This document shows, piece by piece, positions 9,501-57,283 of a DNA stretch of 64,000 nt. Numbering within the stretch: the stretch's first letter is position 1; every line of letters starts with the position of its first letter. Origin of the DNA: Burkholderiales bacterium (GTDB taxonomy: Bacteria > Pseudomonadota > Gammaproteobacteria > Burkholderiales > Burkholderiaceae_C); NCBI GenBank assembly GCA_016219375.1, contig JACRNC010000016.1, forward strand, positions 218,006-282,005, written 5' to 3'. The position numbers were made by a program, and so were the translations under genes. The notes below the pieces were generated by a model. That model made no database searches, was not told the DNA's origin, and saw only the letters and a list, made by a program, of their open reading frames with translations.

Positions 9501-10032
9501 GCTGGACGCCATCCAGACGCTGGAAGACGCGATCAAGAAGATCGACCTGGAGACGCGCGACCTGCTGGGCTCCACCTTCAACACGGTCAACGAGCACTTC
9601 GGCCGCATGTTCCCCAGCCTCTTCGGCGGCGGGCAGGCCAAGCTCGTCATGACCGGCGACGAAATCCTGGACGCCGGCGTGCAGGTCATGGCCCAGCCGC
9701 CGGGCAAGAAGAACTCCACCATCCACCTGCTGTCGGGCGGCGAGAAGGCGCTGACCGCCATCGCGCTGGTCTTTGCCATCTTCCAGCTCAACCCCGCGCC
9801 GTTCTGCCTGCTCGACGAGGTGGACGCGCCGCTGGACGATGCCAACACCGAGCGCTATGCACGGCTGGTCAAGAGCATGTCGGGCAACACCCAGTTCCTA
9901 TTCATCTCGCACAACAAGATCGCGATGGAGATGGCCGAGCAGCTCGTGGGCGTGACCATGCAGGAGCAGGGTGTGTCGCGCATCGTGGCCGTCGACATGG
10001 AATCTGCCCTGGGCATGGCCGAGGCGGCCTGA
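6517..10032 (+). CDS. smc: chromosome segregation protein SMC
   Basis: 1171 aa. N-terminal Walker A GPNGCGKSNIMDAVRWVLGE, long coiled coils with a central hinge, C-terminal LSGGEKALTAIALVFAIF...LLDEVDAPLD. Confidence 0.95.
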   Translation: MRLNSIKLSGFKSFAEPTNFQLPGQLVGVVGPNGCGKSNIMDAVRWVLGESKASELRGESMQDVIFNGSGNRKPASRASVELVFSNEDARAGGQWNQYSEIAVKRVLTRDGTSSYFINNQPVRRRDVQDVFLGTGLGPRAYAIIGQGTISRIIESKPEELRLFLEEAAGVSKYKERRRETENRLKDTRENLTRVEDILRELNANLDKLEKQAEVAAQYRTLQEQGTLKLHQLWFLKHRDAATEEARVKQAVLEATNALEARLAELRHVEAELEHVRQDHYAASDELHTAQGALAEASLAVSRLEERIRYVVEGRQRLEQRLVELKAQNDQWAERRDQAQAELETIAEQIAAADEQAEILAAQAEEVAGNLPTHEDALRAASQRATEQRSKVTEVQQQIQLLAAESRNIDEQSRQLNLRRDRLAGERQNLAAPDEARLADLRRQLASAEEQQAVVEAQLEDLTTSVPALDEDRRARQDEVNAQAAKQSELAARMEALKALQEKVQTEGKLKPWLAKHGLDGLSGLWTRLHIEPGWETALESALRERLNALEVGRIETIRAFENDAPPAKLAFYSPPAAMPASPHHTLPRLADLLRLNDAGLKALLGDWLEGVYTAGSLDEALANRGRLTQGEVIMTRAGHAVSAHAVAFYAPDSEQAGMLARAQEIENLQKQLRAQALMADEARSGLIRAEAAYTEASQRLAAVRREASEQQARTHQLQVETLKLAQQSEQAQARRGQIEAELAEIDGQLDELSERRATGEARFEELDLSLADTQERHAQLEEAVIEAERRLHGAREQGRSLERQAQEAQFSARSLAARRGELQRAIETAAQQITANEQSAAQVHQELAELSDVAAQAGLEDALAIRMEKEAALSATRARYDDLSAQLRRADEQRMSFERSLEPLREQITRLQLEEQAAQLGGAQYLEQLTAAQVDLEQLARTIEEGGVKLYGLQTEIDRIQREIAALGAVNLAALDELTAARERKGFLDAQMADLLDAIQTLEDAIKKIDLETRDLLGSTFNTVNEHFGRMFPSLFGGGQAKLVMTGDEILDAGVQVMAQPPGKKNSTIHLLSGGEKALTAIALVFAIFQLNPAPFCLLDEVDAPLDDANTERYARLVKSMSGNTQFLFISHNKIAMEMAEQLVGVTMQEQGVSRIVAVDMESALGMAEAA

Positions 10033-10156
10033 GCCGCCGGGCCGCGCCCCACGCGCCCACCCCGGAACAGGCATCCGCACGCATTCGCCCGCACCCGCGC
10101 GCACTTGCACGCATTCGCCCGGCGCGGGCATCCTCAACCGATCAGGCTCTCATCGC

Positions 10157-13320
<3,164 letters not shown>

Positions 13321-34852: not shown

Positions 34853-36304
34853 TCAGAGGTCGCGCGCCGGGAAGATGCTCTTCCTGACCACCGCGTGCAC
34901 GCCCCAGTTGCCGTCCACCACCTGCGTGATGCCGAAGTCCACCGCGATGGACATCAGCGAGATGGCCTCGTCCTCGCCCAGGCCCTGGGTGGTCATGAGG
35001 AAGTGGCGCATCTTGTGATACGCGTCGCGCAGGGCCAGGTCCACCGAGGATTTCTGGTAGATCAGGTTCTGCGCATCCGGGCCCAGCTCGGCCAGGTAGT
35101 TGGCATAGCTGAAGCCGTGCAGCAGCCATTCGTCGGGCGTCTCCAGCAGCGGGTAGCGCAGGTCGGCCAGCGGCGTGCCGGGGAGCTGGGCCTTCTTGTG
35201 CAGGATGAGCTGGAAGGTGCCGGTCAGCGAGCACTCGATGGCCGTGCCGCAGAGCTCCGAGTCGCCCTGCGAGGCATGCGGGTCGCCGACGCTGAACATC
35301 GCGCCGGGCACGGCCACCGGGTAGTAGAGCGTGGCGCCCTTGCCGATGCGCCAGTTGTCGATGTTGCCGCCGGTGTAGTTGGGCGGGATGGAGGTGACCA
35401 TGTCCGCCTCCGCCGGGGCCACGCCCATCGTGCCGAAGTGCGGCCGCACGGGGATGCGGATGTTCTTCAGCACCTTGTCGTTCTTGGTGATGGTGCGGTG
35501 GTCCACCGGCACGCCGGGGTAGTCGATGGTGGGGTGCACCACGCCGAAGGGGTCGGTCTGCGGCGTCCAGCGGTAGTTGTAGACCGCGCGGGCCCAGTTG
35601 CGCTCGCCGGTGGCGTCGATCTCATAGATGGTGACCACCTCGCGCTTCTTCGGCTCGGTCAGCGTGTCGCCGTAATGGAAGCCCCAGTTGGCCGCGGCAT
35701 TGCTACCGAAGGCGCGGCCCTTGTAGGCCGGGTTGGCGCAGGGCCGGGGCACGACGTCGACGATGCGCACCTCCAGGATGTCGCCGGGCTCGGCACCCTT
35801 GATGCGCACCGGGCCGGTGCAGATGTGCACGCCCTGGCCGCCGCCTGCACCGACCTTGGCATCCATCGGGCCGGCGCCGCGGCGGTTGACGCCCTTGCGC
35901 TGCGCATCCCAGTGGAAGACGCTCTCGGCACCCGCGTCGCCGCGCACCATGCGCTCGGCATCGTCGTTGGCATGGTGGGTCAGCGTCTCGATGGTGACGA
36001 AGTCGCCGGACTCCACCTCCACCACCGGCTTGGCCGACTTGCTGAAGTAGCCCCAGAGCACCGTGTCGGCGCGGGCGGGGATGTAGTAGTGGCTGGCCAG
36101 GCCCGAGCCGGGCTGGGCGCTCTTGGCGAATGCGCTGGGCGCCATCGAGACGCTGAGCGCGCTGGCCGAGACGGCGCTGCCGCCGACGACCATCGCGTCG
36201 CGCAGGAAGGAGCGGCGCGCGGATTTGAACTCTTCCTTGGCGTCGGCTTGCTGTTCGGGCGACAGGCCGTGCTGGCAGCCGGGCCCGCAGATGTGCTGGC
36301 TCAT
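34853..36304 (-). CDS. acetamidase/formamidase-family protein with twin-arginine signal peptide
   Basis: ATG 36304. Tat motif SARRSFLRD plus h-region plus AFA. Family blocks HICTGPVRIKGAEPGDILEVRI, GGNIDNWRIGKGATLYYPV, GDPHASQGDSELCGTAIECSL and VDFGITQVVDGNWGVHA. Confidence 0.8.
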   Translation of the reverse strand: MSQHICGPGCQHGLSPEQQADAKEEFKSARRSFLRDAMVVGGSAVSASALSVSMAPSAFAKSAQPGSGLASHYYIPARADTVLWGYFSKSAKPVVEVESGDFVTIETLTHHANDDAERMVRGDAGAESVFHWDAQRKGVNRRGAGPMDAKVGAGGGQGVHICTGPVRIKGAEPGDILEVRIVDVVPRPCANPAYKGRAFGSNAAANWGFHYGDTLTEPKKREVVTIYEIDATGERNWARAVYNYRWTPQTDPFGVVHPTIDYPGVPVDHRTITKNDKVLKNIRIPVRPHFGTMGVAPAEADMVTSIPPNYTGGNIDNWRIGKGATLYYPVAVPGAMFSVGDPHASQGDSELCGTAIECSLTGTFQLILHKKAQLPGTPLADLRYPLLETPDEWLLHGFSYANYLAELGPDAQNLIYQKSSVDLALRDAYHKMRHFLMTTQGLGEDEAISLMSIAVDFGITQVVDGNWGVHAVVRKSIFPARDL

Positions 36305-36454
36305 GGATCGACTCCGGTGTGTGGGGACGGCTGCAGTGTTGGCCGGCAGGGCCGCGGTGCACTGGTCGGCAGGCGCACAACGGCTGGTCGGCCGGCCGGG
36401 CCGGCCCGATGGATGCATGCAGGCTGCGGCATTGCGACGCCCGAGCCTGCCGCC

Positions 36455-38947
36455 ATGCACGACGACCTGCGCCACCTGACGCTAGACGCCTATCCCGAGG
36501 CCCTGCGCCATGAGGCCTGGGACACCGTGCTGGAGCGGCTGCGCGTGGCGGCCGGGCCGTCGGCCGTCGCCCCGTGGGGCCAGGGCTGCTGGCGGGCGTC
36601 GGCGCTGGGCAGCGTCTTCGTGCGGCTGGCCGCATCGGCCCAGACCTGGCAGCCCCGGCCCGGCCAGACACCCGAGGGCCTGCTGGCCGTGACGGTGCTG
36701 GAGGGCAGCGCCCTGGTGGACCACGACGGCGGCACGCTGGCGCTGCGGGCAGGCGACGTGCTGCTGCTGGCGCCGGGCGGCGGCTGGCGGCTCGGCTTCA
36801 TCACGCCGTGGCGGGCGCTGGCGGTGCGGCTGCGGCCGCAGGCGCTGCTGCAGCGGCTGCTGCGCCTGGCCGGGCCGCAGCTGGCGCACCTGGAGCGCGG
36901 CCGGCCGCTGCATGGCGTGTGCAGCGCCCTGCTGGCCAGCGTGGCCGAGCGCCTTCCCGGCCTGGGCCAGGCCGACCTGGCCACCCTGGAGACCACGCTG
37001 GACGGCCTGCTGACCAGCTGCCTGGGCGGCCTGGGCACCCCGGTCGAAACCGGCGCCGAGCCGGCCAGCGCAGTGCAGGCCAGCGCTGTTCAGTTGGGCC
37101 ACCTGCAGCGCGTGTGCCGCACGCTGGAGGCCCGCCTAGGCGAGGCCGACATGAGCCTGGAGCGGCTGGCGGCGCTGGACGGCCTGTCCACCCGCTATGT
37201 GCAGCGGCTCTTCCAGACCGCGGGCACCACCTTCGGCGACCACCTGCGCGAGCGCCGGCTGGAGCGGGCGCGCATGGACCTGCTCAACCCCGCGCTGGCC
37301 CGGGTGACGGTGGCCGAGATCTGCTACCGCTGGGGCTTCAGCGACCCGTCCAACTTCACCCGCGCCTTCAGCGCGCGCTACGGCCTGGCGCCGCGCGCCT
37401 GCCGCAGCCGGCCCGGTGCCCAGGCCGGTGTGCAGGGCGGCAGCCCGGAGCTGCCCCGCCACCGCGGCCGGCCCACGGCCGATGAGCAGGCCGTGGAGCC
37501 GACCCAGGTGCAGGCCGCCCCGCGCGGGCCGGCCACTGCACGCCCTGCAGACGTCGGCCCGGCGCCCGACCCGTCCTTCCGCCAGGTGCTGGACGACCAT
37601 GCCTACCAGGTGCTGGCGGTCAGCCTGGCGCCCAAGCGCAGCCTGGCGGCCGATGTGCCGCTGCCGGCCGCCGCCGGGCCGGCGCCCCGGCATCACTACG
37701 TGCCCGCCTCGGCGCAGACGGTGCACTGGGGCTATCTCAGCCGCAGCCTCAAGCCGGTGGTCACGGTGCGCTCGGGGGATGTCGTCACGCTGGAGACGCT
37801 CACCCAGCACGCGTCGGACGACTGGGAGCGCATGGTGCAGGGCGACGCCGGCGCGCAAAGCGTCTTCCAGTGGACGCCCGGGCACAAGGCCGTCTCGCGC
37901 CGCGGCGCCGGTCCGCAGGACGCGTCGGTCTTCGGCCGCGGCAGCGGCGAGGGCTTCGGCGTGCACATCTGCACCGGGCCGGTCCACGTGCAGGGTGCGG
38001 AGCCCGGCGACGTGCTGGAGGTGCGCATCCTCGACGTGCGCCACCGCCCCAGCCAGAGCCCCCGCTTCCGCGGCCGGGTGTTCGGCAGCAATGCCGCGGC
38101 CTGGTGGGGCTACCACTACCAGGATCTGCTGACCGAGCCGCGCCCGCGCGAGGTGGTCACGCTCTACGAGATCGACACCGTGGCCGAGCCGGCCGTGGCC
38201 CGCGCCGTCTACAGCTACCGCTGGATGCCGCAGACCGACCCGGACGGCGTGCGCCACGCCACCATCGACTATCCCGGCGTGCCGGTGGAGGAGGGCAGCG
38301 TCTACAAGCGCTACGGCGTGCTGGCGGGCGCCTGCGTGCCGCTGCGGCCGCACTTCGGCCTGCTGGCCGTGGCGCCGCGCGAGGCCGGGCCGGTGGACTC
38401 CATCCCGCCCGGCTACTTCGGCGGCAATCTGGACAACTGGCGGGCCGGCAAGGGCGCGCGGCTGTACCTGCCTGTGGCGGTGGACGGCGCGCTTTTCTCC
38501 GCCGGCGACCCGCATGCGGCCCAGGGCGACGGCGAGGTCTGCGGCACGGCCATCGAGTGCTCGCTGACCGGCGTCTTCCAGCTCGTGCTGCACAAGCGGG
38601 CGCAGTGCAGCGGGCCGCTGGCGGGCCTGGGCAGCCCGCTGCTGGAGACGGACGACGCCTGGGTGGTGCAGGGCCTGAGCGAGCCCAACCACCTGGCCGA
38701 CCTGGGCCCGCAGGCGCAGGCCGAGGTCTACCGCCGGGCCTCGCTGGACAGCGCGATGCGCGACGCCTTCCGCAAGGCGCGGCGCCACCTGATGCAGACC
38801 TGGGCGCTGGACGAGGACGAGGCGCTGTCGCTGCTGTCGGTCGGCGTGGACTTCGGCATCACGCAGGTGGCCGACGGCAACTGGGGCGTGCATGCGGTCA
38901 TCCCCAAGGCGCTGTTCCCGCAGCCCGCCGGGCCGCTGGGCGGCTGA
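36455..38947 (+). CDS. AraC-family transcriptional regulator continuing in frame into an acetamidase/formamidase-like domain (830 codons)
   Basis: ATG 36455 (MHDDLRHLTLDAY...). AraC HTH LSTRYVQRLF...VAEICYRWGFSDPSNFTRAFSARYGLAP at about 37170..37400. No stop until 38947. Residues from about 37690 onward are roughly 60% identical by eye to the neighbouring amidase. Confidence 0.65.
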   Translation: MHDDLRHLTLDAYPEALRHEAWDTVLERLRVAAGPSAVAPWGQGCWRASALGSVFVRLAASAQTWQPRPGQTPEGLLAVTVLEGSALVDHDGGTLALRAGDVLLLAPGGGWRLGFITPWRALAVRLRPQALLQRLLRLAGPQLAHLERGRPLHGVCSALLASVAERLPGLGQADLATLETTLDGLLTSCLGGLGTPVETGAEPASAVQASAVQLGHLQRVCRTLEARLGEADMSLERLAALDGLSTRYVQRLFQTAGTTFGDHLRERRLERARMDLLNPALARVTVAEICYRWGFSDPSNFTRAFSARYGLAPRACRSRPGAQAGVQGGSPELPRHRGRPTADEQAVEPTQVQAAPRGPATARPADVGPAPDPSFRQVLDDHAYQVLAVSLAPKRSLAADVPLPAAAGPAPRHHYVPASAQTVHWGYLSRSLKPVVTVRSGDVVTLETLTQHASDDWERMVQGDAGAQSVFQWTPGHKAVSRRGAGPQDASVFGRGSGEGFGVHICTGPVHVQGAEPGDVLEVRILDVRHRPSQSPRFRGRVFGSNAAAWWGYHYQDLLTEPRPREVVTLYEIDTVAEPAVARAVYSYRWMPQTDPDGVRHATIDYPGVPVEEGSVYKRYGVLAGACVPLRPHFGLLAVAPREAGPVDSIPPGYFGGNLDNWRAGKGARLYLPVAVDGALFSAGDPHAAQGDGEVCGTAIECSLTGVFQLVLHKRAQCSGPLAGLGSPLLETDDAWVVQGLSEPNHLADLGPQAQAEVYRRASLDSAMRDAFRKARRHLMQTWALDEDEALSLLSVGVDFGITQVADGNWGVHAVIPKALFPQPAGPLGG

Positions 38948-47600: not shown

Positions 47601-47687
47601 CACCCGGCCCACGCGGCAGCAACCGGGCCCGCCGCTTTGGCCGCCTCACCCAGCACTTGACCGCCGGTCACCCAGCAGCCGCCCGCG

Positions 47688-48224
47688 ATGAACCGCGACA
47701 CCACCCACCCAGCCGCTGCCGCGCAGCCGGGCGCGCCCACGGCCGCGCTGCCGGACCTGGCCACCCTGCCGCTGCTGCAGCGCCCGGTGTCGGTGCTGGT
47801 GGCCACGCGTGATGCGACGCACCAGCCGCACGTGGTGCGCGCGCTGGGCCTGCAGGGGCCGCCGCGCAGCGAGCGCATCGCCGTGCTGATCGACGGCGCG
47901 GCGGCCGAGGACACGCTGGCCGATGTGCGCGCCAACCGGCAGGTCGCCGTGGTCTTCTGCGAGCCCAGCACCCACCGCACGGTGCAGATCAAGGGCCGCG
48001 ATGCCCGGCTGGAGCCGGCCGGCCCCCAGGACGCGGCCACCGCGCGCAGCTACATCGGCCGCATGACCGGCGAGATCGGCCTGCTGGGCTTTGCGCCGCA
48101 GATGGTGGAGGCGCTCTTCAGCCACGACCCGGCCGCGCTGCAGGTGCTGAGCTTCACACCGTGCGAAGCCTATGAGCAGACGCCCGGCGCGCATGCGGGC
48201 GAGCCGCTGCCGCCGCAGCCCTGA
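47688..48224 (+). CDS. pyridoxamine 5-prime-phosphate oxidase-like (FMN-binding split-barrel) family protein
   Basis: 178 aa. VSVLVATRDATHQPHVVR...VAVVFCEPSTHRTVQIKG resembles the PNPOx-like split-barrel pattern. Assigned from memory of the fold family. Confidence 0.5.
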   Translation: MNRDTTHPAAAAQPGAPTAALPDLATLPLLQRPVSVLVATRDATHQPHVVRALGLQGPPRSERIAVLIDGAAAEDTLADVRANRQVAVVFCEPSTHRTVQIKGRDARLEPAGPQDAATARSYIGRMTGEIGLLGFAPQMVEALFSHDPAALQVLSFTPCEAYEQTPGAHAGEPLPPQP

Positions 48225-48253: not shown

Positions 48254-49708
48254 ATGCCGCTGACGCTGGACGACATCCGCGACTGCCTGGAGGGCGCCAT
48301 CCCCGGCGTCATGGCCACCTGCGCGGCCGACGGCACGCCCAACGTCGCCTACCTGTCGCAGGTGGACTACGTGGATGCGCGGCACGTGGCGCTGTCCTTC
48401 CAGTTCTTCAACAAGACGCGGCGCAACGTGCTGGCCGACCCGCGGGTGGAGATCCTGGTCGCCCATCCCTTGACCGGCGCGCTCTACCGCATCCGCGCCC
48501 GCTACCTGGCAACGCAAACCGAAGGGCCGCTGTTCGAGCGCATGAAGGCCAAGCTCTCGGGCATCGCCTCGCACAGCGGCATGGCCGGTGTGTTCCACCT
48601 GCTCGGTGCGGACCTGTACGAGGTGACGTCCATCGACCACGTGCGCAAGGCCGACCTGCCGGCGCCGGCGCCCGGCGTCAACCGGCTGGCCGCGCTGCGT
48701 CGCTGCACGCAGGCGCTGCAGGGCTGCGGTGATCTGGACAGCCTGCTGGAGGCGCTGCTGGACGGCCTGGCCCGCGAGCTGCACATCGAGCACGCGCTGG
48801 TGCTGGTGCACGATGCCGCCGCACAGCGCCTCTACACCGTGGCCAGCCGCGGCTACGGCCGCTCGGGCGTGGGCTCGGAGATCGGCCTGGGCGAGGGCGT
48901 GATCGGCGTGGCCGCGCGCCAGCGCGTGCCCGTGCGCATCAGCCACCTGACCAGCGAGCAGGCCTATATGCAGGCGGTGCGCAAGCACCTGCCGCCGCAC
49001 CAGCCGGGCGATGCCGGCGCCATGCGCGAGATCCCCTGGCCCGGCCTGGCCGAGCCGCACAGCCAGCTGGCCGTGCCGCTGCTGGCCTGCGGCGAGCTGG
49101 TGGGCGTGCTGTTCGACGAGAGCGAGCAGGACCTGCGCTTCAGCTACGACGACGAGGACGCGCTGGTGGCGCTGGGCGGGCAACTGGCAGCCTGCCTGCG
49201 CCAGCTGCAGGACGGCGAGGCCGCCGATGCGGCGCCGACACCGGGGCAGCCGGCGGAGCCACGTGCACGGCATGGCGTGCCTCAGTGTCCACCGCCGGGG
49301 CCACCGCACGGCACGGCCCACGGCTCACAACAGGGCTCACCGCAAGGCACGCCATCGCCGCCCCCCGCGCAGCCGGCCGCCGCCCCGCTGCACGTGCGCT
49401 ACTACGAGCAGGACGGCAGCGTCTTCTTCGACGGCGACTACATCATCAAGGGCGTGGCCGGCGCCGTGCTCTGGACCCTGCTCAGCGACCACGCGGCCAG
49501 CGGGCGCTGCGAGTTCACCAACCGCGAGCTGCGGCTGGATCCGCGGGTGCGCCTGCCCGACGTGGCCGACAACCTGGAGGCCCGCCTGGTGCTGCTGGCC
49601 CGCCGCCTGGCCGAGCGCGGCGGCCGCGTGCAGCTGGCCAAGGCCGGCCGCGGCCGCCTGCGGCTGGAGGTGGGCCGCCCGCTGCTGCTGCAGGCGCTGG
49701 GCGCTTGA
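48254..49708 (+). CDS. PNPOx-like domain + GAF domain + unassigned C-terminal domain protein
   Basis: 484 aa. N-terminal VMATCAADGTPNVAYLSQV...FFNKTRRNV (PNPOx-like), central GAF-like LVLVHDAAAQRLYTVASRGY...GEGVIGVAA...LAVPLLACGELVGVLF, Pro-rich linker, then a roughly 115-aa C-terminal domain. Confidence 0.65.
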   Translation: MPLTLDDIRDCLEGAIPGVMATCAADGTPNVAYLSQVDYVDARHVALSFQFFNKTRRNVLADPRVEILVAHPLTGALYRIRARYLATQTEGPLFERMKAKLSGIASHSGMAGVFHLLGADLYEVTSIDHVRKADLPAPAPGVNRLAALRRCTQALQGCGDLDSLLEALLDGLARELHIEHALVLVHDAAAQRLYTVASRGYGRSGVGSEIGLGEGVIGVAARQRVPVRISHLTSEQAYMQAVRKHLPPHQPGDAGAMREIPWPGLAEPHSQLAVPLLACGELVGVLFDESEQDLRFSYDDEDALVALGGQLAACLRQLQDGEAADAAPTPGQPAEPRARHGVPQCPPPGPPHGTAHGSQQGSPQGTPSPPPAQPAAAPLHVRYYEQDGSVFFDGDYIIKGVAGAVLWTLLSDHAASGRCEFTNRELRLDPRVRLPDVADNLEARLVLLARRLAERGGRVQLAKAGRGRLRLEVGRPLLLQALGA

Positions 49709-49789: not shown

Positions 49790-50557
49790 TCAGGCGGCCA
49801 GCAGCGCTGGCTGGGTTGCCGGCTGGAGCGACGGGTCGGTGGCTGCGGTCAGACCCAGGCCGCGCTGCACGCCAGCCCACTGCGCCGCATCCAGCACCTC
49901 GCGCGCCAGGTCCAGCACGGCGGCGAAGGCCGGCGGCGGGGCCTCGGCCTGCATGCCGGCCAGCATGCCCAGGCGCTCGGTGGGGCTCAGCGCCGGCAGC
50001 ATCCAGCGCATGATGAACATCATCTCGGCAGGCTGGATGCCGGCCAGGATCTCGTCATGCACGGCCTTGAGCTCGGCGTCCGAGTAATGCGCCCACAGCA
50101 CGGCGTTGTGGCGGGCCTCCTCCACTTGCATGTGCTCGAAGTTCTCGCCGACGAAGCGCGAGAGCTCCAGGTACAGCCGGTGCAGCGCCCCGGCCCGCAC
50201 CGGGCCCGTGGCTTGCTCCGCGCCGTCGCACAGCGCACGCAGGCCGCTGATGCTGTCGGCATGGTCCTGGTGCTCGCCGGCGACGCGCGAGCTGGCGCCG
50301 CCCACCGCGCGCTCCACGAGCGGGTGCACGTAGTGCTCTTCCTTGGCGATGTGGGCCTCGCAGGCGGCCAGCAGCTCGCGCACCTGGGCCAGGGCGCCGT
50401 CGGCGGATGCACGGTCGTCGGCATCGGCGCGGCCCAGGCGCAGCAGCGTGTCGCTCATCAGGCTGCGCAGCGCCTTGTGGATGAAGGCGTACAGGTCCAT
50501 GCGCGGGGCCTGGGCGGGCGTACCGGGCAGGGTGGGCGGGGTGGGGATGGTGTTCAT
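49790..50557 (-). CDS. hemerythrin (HHE cation-binding) domain protein
   Basis: ATG 50557 preceded by AGGAA. His/Glu spacing FIHKALR...HIAKEEHYVHP...GEHQDH...FEHMQVEE typical of hemerythrin-like domains. Confidence 0.6.
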   Translation of the reverse strand: MNTIPTPPTLPGTPAQAPRMDLYAFIHKALRSLMSDTLLRLGRADADDRASADGALAQVRELLAACEAHIAKEEHYVHPLVERAVGGASSRVAGEHQDHADSISGLRALCDGAEQATGPVRAGALHRLYLELSRFVGENFEHMQVEEARHNAVLWAHYSDAELKAVHDEILAGIQPAEMMFIMRWMLPALSPTERLGMLAGMQAEAPPPAFAAVLDLAREVLDAAQWAGVQRGLGLTAATDPSLQPATQPALLAA

Positions 50558-50765
50558 GGTTCCTCTGCTTTGCTGTTGATGAGTGGGGCAGCGCGATGGC
50601 GTCATCGCGTGCCGTCACTCTAGGAAAGCAGCCCGCCGAGGGTTCGTAAATGAACCCTCACGGAACCTTAAGGCCTCATTAATCCCCCGCCGGAGGGTGG
50701 CCGGCCGAGCAGGGGCGCTCAGGGACGCCAGGGACGCTGAGGGGCCCCCAGCGGCCCGGATGCGC

Positions 50766-51549: not shown

Positions 51550-53556
51550 CTAGAAGCCCAGCTCCCGCACCGCCACCAGCAGGGCGGGCTTGAGCGTGTG
51601 CAGCAGCCAGCTGCGAGGCTGGCCCTCGATCACCGCACGGCCGCGCAGGAGGCGAGGCGGGCCTGGGGGCGCATCCAGCCGGATGCGCAGCCGGTAGAGC
51701 GTGTCTCGCACCATGAGCGCCCGGTCTCCAGGCAGGACCGCGATGGGGCCGCCGTGACGGCTGGCCAGTACGGGGTGGGGCAGGGTGATCATGCGGCTCT
51801 GGTCCACCGCCACGACCTGGCCGTTCAGCGGCTGACCGCCGCCGTCGGGGAAGAAGCGCACCGCCGCGCCGGCCCGCAGGCGGGAGAGGTCGTCCTGGGT
51901 GACGAACACCTCGGCCTGCCAGCGCGAGCCGGAGACGACCACGGCCAGGGCCTGGCCCGGTGATACCCAGACCCCTGGCGCCAGGGCAGGGTCCAGGTCG
52001 AGCACCTGGCCATCGAAGGGAGCGGCCAGGACCAGGCGTGCCGCCTCGTCCTGCTGCGCGGCAGCTTCGGCCAGGTTCTGCGCCCACAGCCGCTGCAGCA
52101 CGTCGCGCTGGGCTTCGCCGTCCAGCGTGCCCGACAGGCCGCGGATGCGTGCAGCCAGGGCGTCGGCCGAGGTGGTCGCCAGTGCGGCCTTGTAGGCCAC
52201 CTCCGGCTGCTCCAGCGTGAAGACCGGCCGTCCGGCCCGCACCGGGCCCGCCTGCGGCAGGGCGACGATGCGCGCCGGCATGGGGCTGTAGAGCGTCTGC
52301 GCCTGCGCCGGACGTGCCCAGCCGGGGGCATGCACGCGCCAGGGCAGCGGCAGCAGGCCGATGGTGAGCAGCAGCGCCACCCCGGCCGCGGCGCCGCCCA
52401 GGCGCCGGCGGGGGATGGCCGCGCGCCGGGCCAGCCAGATGCGCAGCTCGCGCCACATCGGCAGCACGACGAACCAGGCGATCTCGACGATGAACAGCAG
52501 GATGCCCAGCAGCTTAAAGAAGAGCAGGTAGACGGCCACCGCGATGCCGACGAAGACCACCAGCCGGTAGAGCCAGGTGACCACCGCAAAGGCCACCAGC
52601 GCCCGGCGGCGGCCCCGGGGCAAGGGTTCGGGGTCAGGCTCGTCCCAGCCCAGCAGGCGACGGCGCAGGCTGGCGCGGGCCAGCGCGGCGGCCCGCTCGC
52701 GCAGATTGGGCTCGTCCAGCACGTCCGACAGGATGAAGTAGCCGTCGAAGCGAATGAACGGGCTGGCATTGAGCGCCAGCGTCATGACCCAGGCGGTGGT
52801 CGCCAGGAAGAACAGGCCCTGCCGCACGCTGCCTTCGGCGGTGAAGTTCCAGGCCAGCAGGGCCAGGCCGGCCAGGGCCAGCTCGGTGACGATGCCGGCC
52901 GAGGCGATGCGCAGCCGCTGGCGGTGGTCCGACAGCCGCCAGGACTCGCCGGTGTCGGTGTAGAGCATGGGCCACATCACGACGAAGGCCACGCCCATGT
53001 GCGCCACGCGCAGCCCGTAGCGGGTGGCGGTGACGGCATGGCCCAGCTCGTGCAGGCTCTTGGTGACGGCCAGCGCGGCCAGGTAGCCCAGCAGGCCGGC
53101 GGGGGTGAGGGTGTCGACGAAGCTGGCGGCAAAGGCGTCCCATTGCCGCGCCGTCAGCACGAGGCCCAGGAGCGTGAGCCCGGCCACCGTCACGGCCGTG
53201 GCCCGGGTGTAGACCCAGCCCAGCGCGGGGGCCAGCAGGCCCAGCCAGGCCGCCGGGCGCAGCAGCGGCACGCGGAAGAACAGGTAGTGGTGCAGCAGCC
53301 AGTGCATCACGCCGGGCCGCGCCTGGCGGTGGCGGGCCAGCAGCGCGCGGGTGTAGTCGGGGTGGCGCACGTCGAGCAGTTGGTGGTGCAGCAGGAAGGC
53401 GTAGAGCTCCTCCAGCTCGGCCTGCTCGGGCTGCAGCAGGGTCTCGGCCGCGGTGGCCTGCAGCAGCGCAGCGGGGTCGCCCAGGTGCCAGCGGCTGAGC
53501 AGCTCGAACTCCAGCCAGCCGATGCGGAAGAACTGGTTGGTGGCCGGGTCCTGCAC
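51550..53556 (-). CDS. site-2-protease (M50) membrane metalloprotease fused to a C-terminal HlyD-like adaptor domain. The 5-prime end probably extends toward 53646.
   Basis: HELGH in KSLHELGHAV and the second M50 motif LNASPFIRFDGYFILSD. The C-terminal roughly 270 aa has lipoyl-like and beta-barrel adaptor segments. The tracked start at 53556 is GTG. Confidence 0.75.
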   Translation of the reverse strand: MQDPATNQFFRIGWLEFELLSRWHLGDPAALLQATAAETLLQPEQAELEELYAFLLHHQLLDVRHPDYTRALLARHRQARPGVMHWLLHHYLFFRVPLLRPAAWLGLLAPALGWVYTRATAVTVAGLTLLGLVLTARQWDAFAASFVDTLTPAGLLGYLAALAVTKSLHELGHAVTATRYGLRVAHMGVAFVVMWPMLYTDTGESWRLSDHRQRLRIASAGIVTELALAGLALLAWNFTAEGSVRQGLFFLATTAWVMTLALNASPFIRFDGYFILSDVLDEPNLRERAAALARASLRRRLLGWDEPDPEPLPRGRRRALVAFAVVTWLYRLVVFVGIAVAVYLLFFKLLGILLFIVEIAWFVVLPMWRELRIWLARRAAIPRRRLGGAAAGVALLLTIGLLPLPWRVHAPGWARPAQAQTLYSPMPARIVALPQAGPVRAGRPVFTLEQPEVAYKAALATTSADALAARIRGLSGTLDGEAQRDVLQRLWAQNLAEAAAQQDEAARLVLAAPFDGQVLDLDPALAPGVWVSPGQALAVVVSGSRWQAEVFVTQDDLSRLRAGAAVRFFPDGGGQPLNGQVVAVDQSRMITLPHPVLASRHGGPIAVLPGDRALMVRDTLYRLRIRLDAPPGPPRLLRGRAVIEGQPRSWLLHTLKPALLVAVRELGF

Positions 53557-53646
53557 GACCCAGGCGGGCGAGCCGTCGCCATGCGGGGCCGCCGGATGCA
53601 GCTGCAGGTCGTCGCGCAGCGGCGGCGCCGGGCGCAGCGGCGGCGC

Positions 53647-54735
53647 TCACAGGCCCACCCACTGGCGCAGCGCGCCCAGCGGCCGGCGCAGCACCCAGTA
53701 GAGGAAGGGCCGCCAGTCGCCGTAGACCTTGGCCACGCCGCGCAGGCCGATGTGCGCCTGCTCGCCCGGCAGCAGCCGGCCGCGCACGCGGTAGGACGCG
53801 ACCTCGTCGGGCGACAGCGTGGCCTGGTAGCTGGTCTCCACCAGCTGCGCCGACAGCGCATCCAGCGGCGCCACCTGCAGGTACACGCGCATGGGCGCGC
53901 CGCGCTCCAGCGCGATGGCGTCGCCCACCGGCACCCAGACCAGCACGCCCAGGTCATCGGGGCGGGCCAGCTGGGCGATGCGCTCGCCGGTGACCACCGG
54001 CTTGCCGATCCAGTCGTTGGGGTCGCCGAAGACGAAGACGCCGTCGTGCGCGGCGCGCACCTCGATGCGGCCGAGCAGCTCGTCCAGGTAGGCGACCTCG
54101 GCCTCCTTCTCGCGCACGCGGCCCTGCAGCGTGGCCACGCCGCCCTTGGCCTGGGCATCGTCGAAGGCCTTCTGGCTGGCGGCCAGGGCGTCGGCCCGCG
54201 CCGCCTCCAGCGCCTGCACCGCCACCTCGCGGCGGTTGCGCAGCGTGGTGTCGTCCAGCGAGAAGAGCTTCTGCCCGGCCTTGACCGGCTGGTTGGGCTG
54301 CACGTGGAAGGCCTTGATGACGCCGTCGGTGGGCGCGGCAACGGCCTGGGCCTCCAGGGCGACGATTTCGGCCGGAGCGATCACCGACAGGCGCACCGGG
54401 ATCAGCGTGGCAAGCGCCGCGGCCAGCACCAGGCCACGCAGCCAGCGCCGCCGGCGCGGGTCGTCTGCCAGGCGGGGCAGCAGCCGGCGGCGGCGCGCCT
54501 GCAGCGCCTGCAGGCAAAAGGCGTAATGGCCGTGCAGCACGGCCAGCAGCGCGCGCTCGGCATCCTGGAAAGGCTCGTCGCGCACGTAGAAGACACCGCC
54601 GAGGCTCTGGCCGTCCGGTGCCGTCAGCGGCAGCCACAGCGCATGCTGCGGCCACCACTCGGCCCAGCCGGCGCGCAGCGGCCCGGGCAGGTCGGCGGCG
54701 GTCAGCGCCCGGCCGCCGTCCGGCGCGGGCGGCAT
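53647..54735 (-). CDS. HlyD-family periplasmic adaptor protein (5-prime boundary uncertain: ATG 54735 or GTG 54837)
   Basis: TM WLRGLVLAAALATLIPV, lipoyl-like GVIKAFHVQPNQPVKAGQKLFSLDD, coiled coil, beta-barrel C-terminus. The frame is open upstream into the adhesin remnant. Confidence 0.6.
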   Translation of the reverse strand: MPPAPDGGRALTAADLPGPLRAGWAEWWPQHALWLPLTAPDGQSLGGVFYVRDEPFQDAERALLAVLHGHYAFCLQALQARRRRLLPRLADDPRRRRWLRGLVLAAALATLIPVRLSVIAPAEIVALEAQAVAAPTDGVIKAFHVQPNQPVKAGQKLFSLDDTTLRNRREVAVQALEAARADALAASQKAFDDAQAKGGVATLQGRVREKEAEVAYLDELLGRIEVRAAHDGVFVFGDPNDWIGKPVVTGERIAQLARPDDLGVLVWVPVGDAIALERGAPMRVYLQVAPLDALSAQLVETSYQATLSPDEVASYRVRGRLLPGEQAHIGLRGVAKVYGDWRPFLYWVLRRPLGALRQWVGL

Positions 54736-54837
54736 GCCGTCGGGCAGGGGATGGAGCGATGGCAGGGCCCGCTGCACCTGGGCCAGCCACAGCGTGTAGG
54801 GCGTGTCCTCGGCGGTGCTGGCCAGGCCGCCGAGCAC

Positions 54838-57283
54838 CTTGTCGGCGATCTGCTGGTCCACCACCACCGTGCCGTCGGCACGGATGATCGTCAGCCAGGT
54901 GCTGCCGGCCACATAGGTACCGATGTCCGACGCGGTGGCCCCGGCCGGCACCACCAGCGCGTCCTTGATGTTGATGTTGAACAGGTCGATGACCGCGCGG
55001 TTGGTCACCGAGATGGTGAACTCGATCTGCTCGCCCAGCTCCACCTGCGTGTCGTCGTCGCTGGCCGATGCCCCGTAGGTCACGCGCGAGGCCTCGGTGG
55101 AGACCTTGCTGAAGACGTAGTCCGGGAAGGGCAGCACCGTGGTGCCCAGGTCCAGGTAGGGATTGCCGGCCCCGGCGATGGACGGATCCTCGCCCCAGGC
55201 GGCGGTGATCAGCGTGCCGTCGGTGTGTAGACGGTCAGGCCGCTCTGGTCGTTGTCGCTGTCGAAGACGCGGTAGGACTCCAGCTCGGTGATGTCGTACT
55301 GGAAGGTGTTGGTGCTGCCCACGCGCGTGCCGGTGACGGTGGCTCCCTTGGAGTCCTTGACCGTCACGCCGGCGGCGTTGTCGATGTAGAGCGTGGTGTC
55401 GTCGGTGGCCGTCACCCACACCGGGCTGCCGTTGGCCGCGCCGGTGGTCGGGGTGTTGTTGTTGCCCGGGCCCCAGGCCACCACGAACTTGGTGGTCAGG
55501 TAGGTCTCGGGCACGAGCGAGTAGCTCCAGTCGTGCGTCGCGTTGCTGGTGGCGTCGGCGTCGATGACGCTGACGGCATAGAACTTGGCGCCGTTGGCGG
55601 TGTAGAAGTGCGCCGCCGATGCCGGCATCAGCACGTAGTTGGTGCCCTTGGCTGCCACCGTCACGCTCAGACCGGTCTGCGTGGCGGTGTCGTAGTAGAC
55701 GGTCAGCGGGTTGGACGCATCGGGGTTGTAGATCACCACATAGGCCGGGTCAGCCGACAGCGTCGTGCCCAGCGGGGCGTAGTAGCTGGAGGCCCACTGT
55801 TCGTCAGGCGTCAGCGAGAACCAGCGGTTCTCATAGGACGAGCCCACGTCGCCGGCGATCACGTAGACGCCGATGCCCTTGTCCGCCTCGATGCGCCCGC
55901 CGGCGTTCAGGCCGCCGTTGACGAGATAGGTGTCGCCCTCGTTGGCCAGCGTCACCGTGGTCTCGAAGGTGCCGTCGCCGTCCTTGTCGATGCGCACCGT
56001 GGTGTTGGCCGCGGTGGCGATGATGTGGGCCGAGGTGTACTCGAACAGCTTGTTGGTGCCGGTGGCCACCGTGGAGACGTTCTGGCCGATGGGCAGGGTG
56101 TAGACCTTGCCCGCATTGCCGGCGTCCACCACGGCCACCGCGCCGGCCAGCACCGTGCCCGGGCTGGCCGACCAGCCGGCCTTGGTCACGGCGATCGCCG
56201 TGGTCGAGCCGATCTTGTCGCGGCCGTCATAGTCCACCGTGGACGGGCTGGACGGGTTGACGCGTTGCGCAGCACGATGCTCTGGCCGGCGGTCAGCGTG
56301 TCCTCGCCCGCGTCGAAGCTGCCGTTGTTGTTCAGGTCCAGGTAGCCGTTGGACGCATCGTTGTCGCCCCAGACCTGGGTCGTGGCCTGCAGCGGGTTGT
56401 TGATGTCGGCCTCGTAGCCGTCCTCCCAGTGGTCGTAGATGACGACCGTGCCGTTGCTCGTCGCGCTGATGGCGATCACCGTCTCGATGTTGCCCGACAC
56501 GCCCGAGGCGATGGCCGACAGCGCCATCTTGATGTCCGGCTCCGGCAGCGGCACATAGTGGATCTGGGCCACGGCATAGGGCGCGGCCTGCTCCACCGCC
56601 ACGGCCTGGCCGTCCACCATCACCGTGCCCTGGTCGTCCTGCGCGCCGGCCGTCACGGCATTGGCCGCACCGGCGGTCAGCAGGCTGGCGAAGGCATGGC
56701 CCTCGTCGCCGGGCGTGTCGGCATCGCCATTGAGCCGGTTGTCCAGCGAGTGGCCGATTTCCTCCAGCAGCACCGCGCGCAGCGCCGCGGTGCTGGCCGT
56801 GGCCGCGTAGTCGGCGTTCAGGTAGATCACGGGCTGGCCGTCCGGCCCCTGGGCAGCGTAGCCCCCCAGCGCGCCCTGCATGTCGGCCGCGCTGCGCAGC
56901 TCGATGCGCACCGGCGCGGAGCCGTCCGCCCAGTCCTGCAGCGCCTGGGCCGCCTGCGCCCGCCAGGCCGCATCGGCCGCCGGCGCGTCGGCCGCCTGGA
57001 ACATCTGCACCAGCGTGTCCACCGCACCTTGCTGAGCGGCAACGCCTTGCACCAGCTCCTGCGCCTCGGACAGGGCGGTGACCACCGGCGCAGGCAGCGC
57101 CAGGTCGGCCGGGCCCTGGGGCACCGCACTGGCCGCATCAGCCGCGGCACCGGCCGCCGCGTCGGCTGCAGCCAGGTCGTGCACGACGTCCACCGCTGCT
57201 GCGCCGTCGAACAGGATGCGCGGCTCCAGCTCCAGCAGACGCAGACGGGACGCCCGATGGGCAGCAGCATGGGGAGGCTTCAT
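54838..57283 (-). pseudogene. LEPR-XLL-type large surface/adhesin-like protein gene, disrupted by two frameshifts and truncated within a DUF11-like repeat
   Basis: ATG 57283 gives MKPPHAAAHRASRLRLLELEPRILFDGAA (LEPR-XLL N-terminus). The protein-like sequence continues in a second frame from about 56261 (VNPSSPSTVDYDGRDKIG...) and in a third from about 55224 (TDGTLITAAWGEDPS...ELGEQIEFTISVTNRAVIDLFNINIKDAL). Confidence 0.6.

What the first reader, a model, noticed from the sequence alone, without database searches (positions are those of the whole stretch)
51550..54735. Intramembrane M50 protease fused to a HlyD adaptor, paired with a second HlyD adaptor, with no pump or TolC gene
Two consecutive minus-strand genes are involved. 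The first is a classical single-TM HlyD-type adaptor. The second is a multi-pass protein carrying both site-2-protease motifs (HELGH, then NASPFIRFDG), whose last roughly 270 residues form another HlyD-like adaptor (lipoyl-like and barrel segments). No ABC, MFS or RND transporter and no outer-membrane factor is encoded anywhere in the 64 kb. The pair lies directly downstream of a LEPR-XLL/DUF11 surface-protein remnant. A protease active inside the membrane, covalently joined to a periplasm-spanning adaptor, suggests a processing-coupled export or signalling device. As far as I know this family is annotated only by similarity (YydH-like peptide metalloprotease) and has no described mechanism.
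Basis: partly seen in the sequence, partly recalled or inferred. Interest (0 to 1): 0.65.

Follow-up and report, generated by a model that had tools for sequence, protein, structure and literature searches.

The report
Decayed remnant of adhesin-handling protease-adaptor system
The two genes are real but are the broken remains of a widespread, unstudied gene cluster in which a membrane protease fused to a periplasmic adaptor sits with a giant surface adhesin, a TolC-like channel and two more adaptors, and never with a pump.

Summary
Gene B (51550-53646, minus strand) fuses a site-2-type protease (HELGH, NASPFIRFDG) to a C-terminal periplasmic adaptor. Gene A is a second adaptor. No ABC, RND, MFS or outer-membrane factor gene lies in the 64 kb.

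Three points need correction:
- Gene B also has an N-terminal peptide-binding RRE domain. Its closest described relative is the daptide leader peptidase MpaP, but it scores below that family's cut-off.
- Gene A is not a classical HlyD. It belongs to a GAF-TM-adaptor family.
- The pair is not a free-standing device. In 65 of 66 beta/gammaproteobacterial genomes it ends a five-gene cluster: giant LEPR-XLL adhesin, TolC-like OMF, small adaptor, GAF-adaptor, RRE-protease-adaptor. No ABC transporter lies within 10 kb.

The family has at least 3,180 50%-identity clusters and occurs in at least 581 species. I found no paper on it.

In this window the cluster is decayed. The adhesin has two frameshifts and is truncated. 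It is fused in frame to gene A, which lacks about 55 codons. The OMF and small adaptor are absent. Gene B has a 5' frameshift.

Likely original function (inferred): a type-I-like, pump-less conduit for the adhesin, whose conserved end motif is bound by the RRE and cut by the protease.

The parts
56186..57283 (-). Adhesin remnant, fragment 1. It holds the N-terminus with the LEPR-XLL motif (LELEPRILFDGAAA, about 57203-57229). It ends at frameshift 1 (about 56240-56261).
   Evidence: ORF. The motif scan finds LE[PQ]RxxFDGA only at adhesin N-termini. P0123 is colinear across fragments 1 and 2 in different frames. The same ORF occurs in 4 sequencing runs.
55209..56237 (-). Adhesin remnant, fragment 2. 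It ends at frameshift 2 (about 55221-55224).
   Evidence: blastx: the L089 1961-aa and L090 526-aa adhesin ORFs are colinear across the frame change.
54838..55419 (-). Adhesin remnant, fragment 3 (frame open up to 55749). It includes a DUF11 domain cut off midway (about 54901-55056).
   Evidence: Pfam DUF11 matches residues 122-173 of the 590-aa ORF, profile positions 9-62 of 114. NCBIfam B_ant_repeat also matches.
54790..54840 (-). Deletion junction. A mid-adhesin DUF11 domain is joined in frame to about codon 55 of the GAF-TM-adaptor gene.
   Evidence: Alignment A2: homology to the canonical protein starts at LGGLASTAEDTPY (54834). tblastn gives 53653-54837, covering 87% of the reference. 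Adhesin homology ends at about 54790.
53647..54837 (-). Gene A: a 5'-truncated GAF-TM-periplasmic adaptor (called 'mHlyD' here). TM segment at 54376-54432. Stop codon TGA at 53647-53649.
   Evidence: HlyD_3, Biotin_lipoyl_2 and RND_mfp hits. It is 41-61% identical to canonical 441-459-aa proteins. Hydropathy. The family's N-domain hits GAF in 5 of 70 members, best E 4.3e-9.
53614..53662 (-). Disrupted 5' end of gene B. The canonical overlapping start, GTG at 53660-53662 (MGGPVS, compare MERAVS elsewhere), is in a different frame from the conserved coding frame. A 15-bp direct repeat GCGCCGCCGCTGCGC occurs at 53632-53646 and 53614-53628.
   Evidence: Frame analysis of 86 loci. Sequence. Repeat coordinates. 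Homology to P0001 starts at 53625.
53377..53619 (-). Gene B, N-terminal cytoplasmic RRE-like (PqqD-type) peptide-binding domain: three strands then three helices.
   Evidence: AlphaFold2 models. Foldseek matches TbiB1 bound to its leader peptide, 5v1u/5v1v, target TM 0.70-0.71, probability 1.0. The NF041824 match spans residues 27-397. MpaP is described as an RRE-fused site-2 protease.
52354..53256 (-). Gene B, seven-helix site-2-protease (M50) membrane core. HELGH at 53038-53052 and NASPFIRFDG at 52741-52770.
   Evidence: Pfam PF02163 above its cut-off. Motifs invariant in 75 homologues. The top Foldseek hit is 3b4r, MjS2P, at E 0.011. Helix positions.
51550..52338 (-). Gene B, C-terminal periplasmic adaptor with lipoyl and beta-barrel domains and an alpha-hairpin (residues 481-537), plus the stop codon.
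   Evidence: HlyD_3 at 4e-14. Foldseek matches MexA, MacA, AcrA and EmrA at E 6e-11 to 1e-8.

Best explanation
The two genes are the surviving, probably inactive, end of a conserved gene cluster.

The intact cluster encodes:
1. a giant repeat adhesin (about 900 to over 5,000 aa) with an N-terminal LE[PQ]RxxFDGA (LEPR-XLL) motif and a C-terminal [SG]F[SR]xQ[LIV] motif;
2. a lipoprotein TolC-like outer-membrane factor;
3. a small secreted adaptor;
4. a GAF-TM-adaptor (gene A);
5. an RRE-site-2-protease-adaptor fusion (gene B).

How the intact system most likely works (inferred, not shown):
- The three adaptor-type proteins and the OMF form a type-I-secretion-like conduit across the envelope, dedicated to the neighbouring adhesin.
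- The cytoplasmic RRE domain of gene B binds one conserved end motif of the adhesin. The N-terminal LEPR-XLL 'leader' is the most likely ligand, by analogy with RiPP leader peptides.
- The adjoining protease, whose active site lies near the cytoplasmic face, cuts the adhesin there. This either matures it during export or releases it.
- The GAF domain of gene A gives a regulatory input.
- No ABC, RND or MFS energiser belongs to the cluster.

State of this window (shown): the adhesin gene is frameshifted twice and truncated. A deletion has joined it in frame to gene A, which lacks about 55 codons. The OMF and small-adaptor genes are absent from the 64 kb. Gene B has lost register with its start codon. 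The locus is therefore a relic.
For: Cluster membership:
- Six diverse genomes show adhesin, OEP, an adaptor of about 255 aa, a protein of about 445 aa, then the M50 fusion, contiguous on one strand, with unrelated flanks and no ABC, RND or MFS Pfam hit within 10 kb.
- tblastn on 80 species genomes: 65 of 66 loci with more than 4.5 kb upstream have all four genes. An ABC-motif scan hit only two small downstream ATPases in one locus.
- An alphaproteobacterial locus keeps adhesin, GAF-adaptor and fusion adjacent.
- Family size: 3,180 50%-identity clusters at E<=1e-30, and the top 150 are all about 700 aa aligned end to end. At least 581 species carry a relative.

Domain architecture:
-; the daptide paper for RRE-S2P.

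Adhesin motifs:
- The LEPR motif sits at every adhesin N-terminus within reach, at 7 distinct loci, and nowhere else in six-frame translations of the loci.
- The C-terminal motif is in 64 of 68 adhesin tails, at a median of 26 aa from the end.
- No Sec-type hydrophobic signal is visible in the N-termini read directly from the sequence.

Decay in the window:
-.
- The same sequence was recovered at 100% and 99.99% identity from independent metagenome assemblies.
Against: - No experiment exists on any member, so secretion, cleavage and the identity of the substrate are inferred from synteny and homology only.
- Which motif the RRE binds and where the protease cuts are unknown.
- A conduit with no energising transporter has no precedent. 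An unlinked ABC exporter cannot be excluded, because only 10 kb on each side was examined.
- Foldseek E-values for the S2P (0.011) and RRE (0.07-0.1) matches are weak, although probabilities are 1.0.
- The OMF and small adaptor are not always between the adhesin and gene A (L089, L095). In this genome they might lie outside the window rather than be deleted.
- Genes A and B still have long open frames, so some residual expression from internal starts is possible.
Confidence: 0.6

Rival explanations
1. The pair is a functional, self-contained processing or export (or signalling) device in this organism. It would use a TolC and perhaps a pump encoded elsewhere.
For: Both reading frames are long and open, with GC3 of 0.84-0.94. 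All catalytic residues are intact. In some clades the OMF and small adaptor are not adjacent to the pair, so unlinked partners are conceivable.
Against: The presumptive substrate gene is frameshifted twice and lacks its C-terminal motif. Gene A lacks the first ~55 residues of its GAF domain and is fused to adhesin debris. Gene B's conserved N-terminal strand of the RRE lies upstream of any in-frame start, and the canonical start is out of frame. The nearest relatives of gene B are all in five-gene clusters.
Confidence: 0.12
2. The cluster is an ordinary type I secretion system whose ABC transporter is encoded elsewhere. The protease fusion would be only an accessory maturation or release factor, like LapG/LapD for LapA-type adhesins.
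For: The substrate type (giant Ca-binding repeat adhesin), a conserved motif within the last ~50 residues, and a TolC-like OMF plus HlyD-type adaptors all recall T1SS adhesin systems. Only 10 kb on each side was inspected.
Against: No ABC gene lies in or near about 70 clusters, although T1SS genes are normally linked. No adaptor reaches the type_I_hlyD cut-off (27 bits against 208.65 in gene A; 18-19 bits in the canonical small and GAF adaptors). There are three different adaptors, one of which carries its own 7-TM domain. No RTX or T1SS C-terminal family hits the adhesins.
Confidence: 0.2
3. The protease acts in RiPP or bacteriocin maturation: a YydH- or MpaP-like leader peptidase, with the adaptors exporting a small peptide.
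For: The best family match is the daptide leader peptidase (176 bits), with a weak YydH/LiaK hit. An RRE fold is present.
Against: Scores are far below both equivalog cut-offs (300 and 225). None of the genes called with precomputed Pfam hits within 10 kb in six genomes is a modifying enzyme, a short-precursor gene or an ABC exporter. The invariant neighbour is a giant adhesin.
Confidence: 0.04
4. The protease is a regulated-intramembrane-proteolysis signalling protease (RseP- or SpoIVFB-like) that cleaves a membrane-anchored regulator.
For: It has the site-2-protease fold and motifs.
Against: No sigma or anti-sigma factor, or other membrane-anchored regulator, is conserved next to it. It has an RRE instead of PDZ or CBS domains. 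It is fused to a periplasmic adaptor.
Confidence: 0.03

Closest known systems
Daptide leader peptidase MpaP (NCBIfam NF041824; RRE domain fused to an intramembrane site-2 protease; 10.1101/2023.03.08.531785)
   Same: An N-terminal RRE-type peptide-binding domain is followed by an M50 core with HExxH and NxxPxxxxDG. The alignment covers residues 27-397 against model positions 17-366 of 379 at 176 bits, and all 13 family members tested match. The RRE fold is supported by the Foldseek match to TbiB1.
   Different: The score is below the equivalog cut-off of 300. The protein has extra TM helices and a ~260-aa periplasmic adaptor at the C-terminus. There are no daptide biosynthetic genes or short precursor ORFs. 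The neighbour is a giant adhesin. It occurs in Gram-negative Proteobacteria together with an OMF.
Periplasmic adaptor proteins of tripartite pumps and T1SS (MexA, AcrA, MacA, EmrA, HlyD)
   Same: Lipoyl, beta-barrel and alpha-hairpin fold. Foldseek E about 1e-10, target TM 0.6-0.7. Pfam HlyD_3 and HlyD_D23 match. The family is encoded with a TolC-like OMF.
   Different: The adaptor is covalently fused to a protease instead of pairing with an ABC, RND or MFS transporter. There are three different adaptor-type proteins per cluster. Subfamily cut-offs are not reached (RND_mfp 29.5 against 94.9; type_I_hlyD not reached).
Giant-adhesin type I secretion with regulated proteolytic release (LapA-LapBCE with LapG/LapD; SiiE; from my own knowledge)
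   Same: A giant Ca-binding repeat adhesin is encoded beside a TolC-like OMF and HlyD-type adaptors. A dedicated protease and a ligand-sensing cytoplasmic domain (GAF here, a degenerate EAL domain in LapD) are plausible control elements.
   Different: There is no ABC exporter. The protease is an intramembrane metalloprotease fused to an adaptor, not a periplasmic cysteine protease. The adhesin has an N-terminal LEPR-XLL motif instead of a retention module, and a distinct C-terminal motif. No RTX or T1SS C-terminal domain family matches.
Peptidase-containing ABC transporters (C39 domain fused to a bacteriocin exporter; from my own knowledge)
   Same: The concept is shared: a leader-recognising protease is covalently joined to a component of the export machine, so that cleavage and export are coupled.
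   Different: The protease class, the component it is fused to, and the size of the substrate (tens of residues against thousands) all differ. No ATPase is present here.

Membership tests
Peptidase M50 / site-2 protease | HExxH in a TM helix plus NxxPxxxxDG in a later helix; Pfam PF02163 above its gathering score | tested here: met
   HELGH and NASPFIRFDG are present and invariant in 75 homologues. PF02163 scores 34.7 bits against 27.2.
Peptidase M50 / site-2 protease | S2P membrane-core fold | tested here: inconclusive
   The top Foldseek PDB hit is MjS2P 3b4r (probability 1.0, 21% identity), but E is 0.011 and target TM 0.46.
Daptide RRE-S2P peptidase (NF041824 equivalog) | Score at or above the curated cut-off of 300 bits | tested here: not met
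   170-176 bits. A homologue, not a member.
Daptide RRE-S2P peptidase (NF041824 equivalog) | N-terminal RRE domain | tested here: met
   The model shows a three-strand, three-helix domain. TbiB1-leader complexes match at target TM 0.70-0.71, probability 1.0, E 0.07-0.1.
Daptide RRE-S2P peptidase (NF041824 equivalog) | Neighbouring short precursor genes and daptide tailoring enzymes | tested here: not met
   None among the genes called within 10 kb in six genomes, and none in the window.
YydH/LiaK epipeptide protease (NF058609) | Score at or above 225 bits | tested here: not met
   23 bits.
Periplasmic adaptor (membrane fusion protein, HlyD superfamily) | Lipoyl, beta-barrel and alpha-hairpin fold; Pfam HlyD_3 | tested here: met
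   Gene B: HlyD_3 at 53.7 bits against 22.2, and Foldseek matches to MexA and MacA at E 1e-10. Gene A: HlyD_3 at 40.7 bits, and Biotin_lipoyl_2 at 29.4 against 29.8, just below its cut-off.
Classical type I secretion system | Dedicated ABC exporter encoded with the adaptor and OMF | tested here: not met
   No ABC family is found in the window or within 10 kb of the intact clusters.
Classical type I secretion system | Adaptor of the type_I_hlyD subfamily (TIGR01843, cut-off 208.65) | tested here: not met
   27 bits for gene A. 18-19 bits for the canonical small and GAF adaptors.
Classical type I secretion system | TolC-like OMF | tested here: not met
   Absent from this window. Present in 65 of 66 related loci, with PF02321 matched twice.
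Tripartite efflux pump | RND, MFS or ABC inner-membrane transporter | tested here: not met
   None in the window or in related clusters.
LEPR-XLL domain protein (NCBIfam NF012209, recalled from memory) | N-terminal LEPRxLL-type motif on a very large repetitive protein | tested here: inconclusive
   The motif LELEPRILFDGAAA can be read directly and recurs at the adhesin N-termini of 7 distinct loci. No NCBIfam model hit the 365-aa ORF even at E<=1.
GAF domain (cytoplasmic domain of gene A's family) | Pfam GAF match | tested here: inconclusive
   5 of 70 members match PF01590 (best E 4.3e-9) and 2 match GAF_2. Most members do not reach E<=1. In the window the first ~55 residues of this domain are missing.

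The most novel reading that the evidence does not exclude
The intact cluster is a distinct secretion and surface-display pathway for giant LEPR-XLL adhesins that works without any ABC, RND or MFS transporter. Its inner-membrane component would be an oligomer of an RRE-site-2-protease-adaptor fusion and a GAF-adaptor. The RRE would recognise the adhesin's terminal 'leader', as in RiPP biosynthesis. Intramembrane cleavage would be coupled to passage through, or release from, a TolC-like channel.
Probability: 0.3. Interest if true: 0.9.

Novelty: new variant of a known kind. Interest (0 to 1): 0.65.

Why it matters
Giant adhesins govern biofilm formation and surface attachment in many Proteobacteria. 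The only established route for them is ABC-driven type I secretion. Here, a cluster found in at least several hundred species pairs such adhesins with a TolC-like channel and three adaptors but never with a pump. It also brings in the RRE-plus-site-2-protease module so far known from peptide natural-product maturation.

If the inferred function holds, three things follow:
- the so far unexplained LEPR-XLL N-terminal motif of giant proteins would have a receptor and a protease;
- RRE-based leader recognition would extend from small peptides to proteins of thousands of residues;
- there would be a testable case of adhesin export or release without a dedicated ATPase.

For this window alone the result is more modest. 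It is a decaying copy, useful mainly as the pointer to the family.

Tried and rejected
- Literature: eight full-text searches found no paper on this fusion or cluster. They covered LEPR-XLL; M50 with HlyD, adhesin and TolC; peptidase M50 with OEP and cadherin; 'putative peptide zinc metalloprotease'; site-2 protease with periplasmic adaptor; DUF4347; daptide; and RRE with S2P and HlyD. The 'M50' hits in the two adaptor reviews were residue numbers or DOIs.
- Sequence search of the PDB with the RRE-S2P half, and with a profile of the GAF-like domain: no hits.
- Pfam on isolated RRE domains at E<=5: no PqqD-type hit. The RRE call therefore rests on fold and on homology to NF041824.
- Periplasmic-binding-protein gene downstream of the fusion: present in only 8 of 75 loci, so not part of the system.
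- TGA read-through fusing genes A and B: rejected on topology, because gene A ends in the periplasm and the RRE must be cytoplasmic.
- A CTG start for gene B: possible but unsupported.
- Assembly error as the cause of the frameshifts: unlikely, because identical sequence was recovered from separate runs.
- The Skermanella homologue P0319 could not be located on a contig.
- The adhesin N-terminal fragment has few relatives, 11 hits, so a broad N-terminal motif survey was not possible.


Full report

Yes. On the minus strand, one reading frame holds two coding regions separated by a single TGA at 53647-53649. Codon-position composition marks both as coding: GC3 is 0.94 for 51550-53646 and 0.84 for 53647-55749.

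The downstream region (gene B) matches Pfam Peptidase_M50 (34.7 bits, cut-off 27.2) and HlyD_3 (53.7 bits, cut-off 22.2). It carries HELGH (53038-53052) and NASPFIRFDG (52741-52770). The upstream region (gene A) matches HlyD_3, Biotin_lipoyl_2 and RND_mfp and has one hydrophobic segment at 54376-54432.

Pfam scans of 37 further ORFs across the window returned only housekeeping families: a PilT-like ATPase, SMC, LigA, homoserine dehydrogenase, ThrC, MoeA, a GGDEF protein, ClpB, NadA/B/C, ArnT-like glycosyltransferases, Mfd and others. No ABC, RND, MFS or OEP family appeared. ORFs shorter than about 190 aa were not scanned.

Upstream lies an ORF starting MKPPHAAAHRASRLRLLELEPRILFDGAAA, followed by a partial DUF11 domain.

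**2. What gene B is**

An AlphaFold2 model built on 75 homologues (pLDDT 87, pTM 0.68) shows three parts:
- an N-terminal domain of three strands then three helices (residues about 10-90);
- seven transmembrane helices (about 148-431), with HELGH in the second and the NxxPxxxxDG motif after the fourth;
- a C-terminal periplasmic adaptor with an alpha-hairpin (481-537).

An odd number of helices puts the N-domain in the cytoplasm and the adaptor in the periplasm. It also puts both catalytic motifs near the cytoplasmic face. This topology is inferred from the model.

Foldseek against the PDB matches the C-terminal part to MexA, MacA, AcrA and EmrA at E about 1e-10. A second model of residues 1-435 (pLDDT 88, pTM 0.81) gives as its best hits the M. 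jannaschii site-2 protease 3b4r (E 0.011, probability 1.0) and the lasso-peptide RRE protein TbiB1 bound to its leader peptide (5v1u/5v1v, target TM 0.70-0.71, probability 1.0, E 0.07-0.1).

At sequence level the best NCBIfam match is the daptide intramembrane metalloprotease NF041824. It covers residues 27-397 at 176 bits, E 1e-51, against a cut-off of 300. The paper that defined daptides describes that enzyme as an RRE domain fused N-terminally to an intramembrane site-2 protease that removes the leader peptide. Its leader motif is ELExMEAP (10.1101/2023.03.08.531785). YydH/LiaK scores only 23 bits against 225.

Gene B is therefore an RRE-S2P-adaptor fusion. It is homologous to RiPP leader peptidases but is not a member of those families.

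**3. How common it is, and what it sits next to**

The fusion is a large family. A word-indexed search found more than 1,652 relatives. An exhaustive search of 1.84 billion cluster representatives found 3,180 at E<=1e-30, and the best 150 are all about 700 aa aligned end to end. These are Beta- and Gammaproteobacteria such as Pseudomonas, Polaromonas, Hydrogenophaga, Variovorax, Achromobacter, Alcaligenes, Comamonas, Dyella, Aeromonas, Azotobacter and Magnetococcus. A more distant clade includes Alphaproteobacteria.

Six diverse genomes with precomputed Pfam annotation all show the same contiguous, same-strand set:
- a giant adhesin (Cadherin_4/5, Big_9, He_PIG; 2,500 to over 5,800 aa);
- an OEP/TolC-like protein (554-640 aa);
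- a small adaptor (253-323 aa);
- a protein of 441-459 aa;
- the fusion.

The genes flanking this set are unrelated from genome to genome.

With reference proteins from those loci, tblastn over 80 species genomes found all of OMF, small adaptor and the ~445-aa protein directly upstream in 65 of 66 loci that had enough upstream sequence. A Walker-A / LSGGQ / Walker-B scan of all six frames found ABC-like ORFs in only one locus, and those were two small ATPases well downstream.

The partner proteins were then characterised:
- The OMF is a lipoprotein with two OEP repeats and no NCBIfam match.
- The small adaptor has a signal peptide and passes the RND_mfp cut-off (105 bits against 94.9).
- The ~445-aa protein is gene A's family. 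It has a cytoplasmic N-domain of about 190 aa, one TM segment and an adaptor. The N-domain is a divergent GAF domain: 5 of 70 members hit PF01590, best E 4.3e-9.

Gene order is not absolute. One contig has OMF and small adaptor upstream of the adhesin (L089). A Xanthobacteraceae genome has adhesin, then GAF-adaptor, then fusion, with nothing between (L095). The invariant core is therefore adhesin plus GAF-adaptor plus fusion.

**4. The adhesins carry two conserved end motifs**

Wherever an adhesin start was within reach (the window's locus, L013, L016, L049, L052, L089, L090), the N-terminus reads basic residues then (A/L)LE(P/Q)RxxFDGA. That pattern occurs nowhere else in six-frame translations of the loci held then. 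Relatives found by protein search show the same motif. None of these N-termini has a hydrophobic Sec-type core; this is read directly from the sequences.

At the other end, 64 of 68 adhesin ORFs that finish just upstream of the OMF carry [SG]F[SR]xQ[LIV], followed by a basic, alanine-rich stretch, at a median of 26 residues from the C-terminus. Three of the four exceptions have close variants. The alphaproteobacterial adhesin has SLAQQL. No RTX or T1SS C-terminal family matches.

**5. The state of the locus in this window**

The cluster here is decayed. There are four lesions.

- Two adhesin frameshifts. Relatives are colinear across the window's separate ORFs: P0123 spans ORF 56186-57283 and ORF 55209-56237, with the frame change at about 56240-56261. 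The L089 and L090 adhesins span the next change at about 55221-55224.
- Truncation and fusion. Adhesin homology stops at about 54790, inside a DUF11 domain of which only profile positions 9-62 of 114 remain. From 54834 (LGGLASTAEDTPY) the same frame continues as gene A's family, missing the first ~55 residues of the GAF domain. The adhesin's C-terminal motif is gone.
- Missing partners. The OMF and small adaptor genes are absent from the window.
- A 5' frameshift in gene B. In most loci the fusion gene starts at an ATG or GTG that overlaps the end of the preceding gene (MERAVS, VDRAVS and similar). The window keeps that start (GTG 53660-53662, MGGPVS), but it is out of frame with the conserved coding frame. 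That frame has no ATG, GTG or TTG before the conserved LPPLRDDLQLHP strand; its first is GTG at 53556, inside the RRE. A 15-bp direct repeat lies in the affected stretch.

These lesions are not assembly artefacts of one data set. Contigs from other sequencing runs are 100% and 99.99% identical over 6.8-7.9 kb, and the first adhesin ORF recurs in four runs.

A Rhizobacter MAG (L052) shows an independent relic of the same kind. There a mid-repeat adhesin sequence abuts about codon 40 of the GAF-adaptor gene out of frame, with no OMF or small adaptor.

Was the OMF deleted here, or was it never adjacent? One deletion from a five-gene ancestor explains everything, and this is the arrangement in 65 of 66 relatives, including the closest (L003, 64% identity). 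The L089 and L095 arrangements leave that open.

**6. Mechanism**

Shown:
- domain architecture;
- conservation of the catalytic residues;
- strict linkage of the fusion to a GAF-adaptor and a giant adhesin, and usually to an OMF and a third adaptor;
- absence of any linked energising transporter;
- two conserved terminal motifs on the adhesins.

Inferred:
- The adaptors and OMF form a type-I-like conduit for the adhesin.
- The cytoplasmic RRE binds a terminal motif. I favour the N-terminal LEPR-XLL motif, because RRE ligands are N-terminal leaders and the active site faces the cytoplasm.
- The S2P cuts there, either as leader removal coupled to export or as regulated release of an adhesin that stays threaded through the conduit.
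- The GAF domain provides a regulatory input.
- The C-terminal motif is then the better candidate for a secretion signal.

The energy source is unknown. An unlinked ABC exporter is the main rival. My confidence is about 0.9 that the window's pair is a relic of this cluster, and about 0.4-0.45 in the mechanistic outline.

**7. Comparison with known systems, and novelty**

The parts are known kinds: site-2 protease, RRE, periplasmic adaptor, OMF, GAF. The combination is not described in any paper I could find.

It fails the defining test of a T1SS or a tripartite pump, because it has no inner-membrane transporter. It also fails the curated cut-offs of the daptide and YydH protease families.

I rate it a new variant of a known kind: a type-I-like adhesin system with an RRE-S2P-adaptor fusion in place of the ABC exporter. 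There is roughly a 0.3 chance that it is a genuinely distinct, pump-less pathway. The window itself holds only a broken copy, which lowers its local importance but not the value of the lead.

Noticed in passing
L003-L088 (adhesin ORF ends just upstream of the OMF gene); L095:8400-8521: Giant adhesins of the cluster share a C-terminal motif [SG]F[SR]xQ[LIV] followed by a basic, alanine-rich stretch, at a median of 26 residues from the end (64 of 68). It is a candidate sorting signal that matches no known T1SS C-terminal family.
   Followed up: partly
L052:6391-11684 (Rhizobacter sp. MAG): This is an independent relic with the same outline as the window: LEPR-XLL adhesin stump, 5'-truncated GAF-adaptor, intact fusion, and no OMF or small adaptor. 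The breakpoints differ and the junction is out of frame. Both right-hand breakpoints fall within the first 40-55 codons of the GAF-adaptor gene.
   Followed up: partly
L089:1-9261 and L095:1-12127: Two alternative gene orders exist. OMF and small adaptor lie upstream of the adhesin in L089. In a Xanthobacteraceae genome (L095) the order is adhesin, GAF-adaptor, fusion, with no OMF between.
   Followed up: partly
window 53614-53646: A 15-bp direct repeat GCGCCGCCGCTGCGC occurs as two copies 3 bp apart, within the stretch where gene B loses register with its canonical start codon.
   Followed up: partly
window 56700-56800 (ORF 56186-57283) and relatives P0122-P0130: The adhesin N-terminal region after the LEPR motif holds a conserved LLEEIGHxxDxRLNxxxDTPGDEGHAFA segment with no Pfam or NCBIfam match. 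Other adhesins of the family have DUF4347 at that position.
   Followed up: no
window 48254-49708 (+) and 47661-48224 (+): A PNPOx-like domain is fused to a GAF domain and a long Pro/Ala-rich linker. It sits next to a second PNPOx-like gene and a hemerythrin-domain gene (49790-50605, minus). This may be a redox or oxygen-sensing module unrelated to the finding.
   Followed up: no
window 34853-36481 (-) and 36482-38947 (+): Two FmdA_AmdA (formamidase/acetamidase) family regions lie on opposite strands. The second lies in one long open frame together with AraC-type HTH and ligand-binding domains. Gene boundaries there are unclear in this high-GC sequence.
   Followed up: no
window 9956-11224 (+): A 422-aa ORF with no Pfam match lies between smc and ligA. 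In many Proteobacteria zipA occupies this position (from my own knowledge).
   Followed up: no
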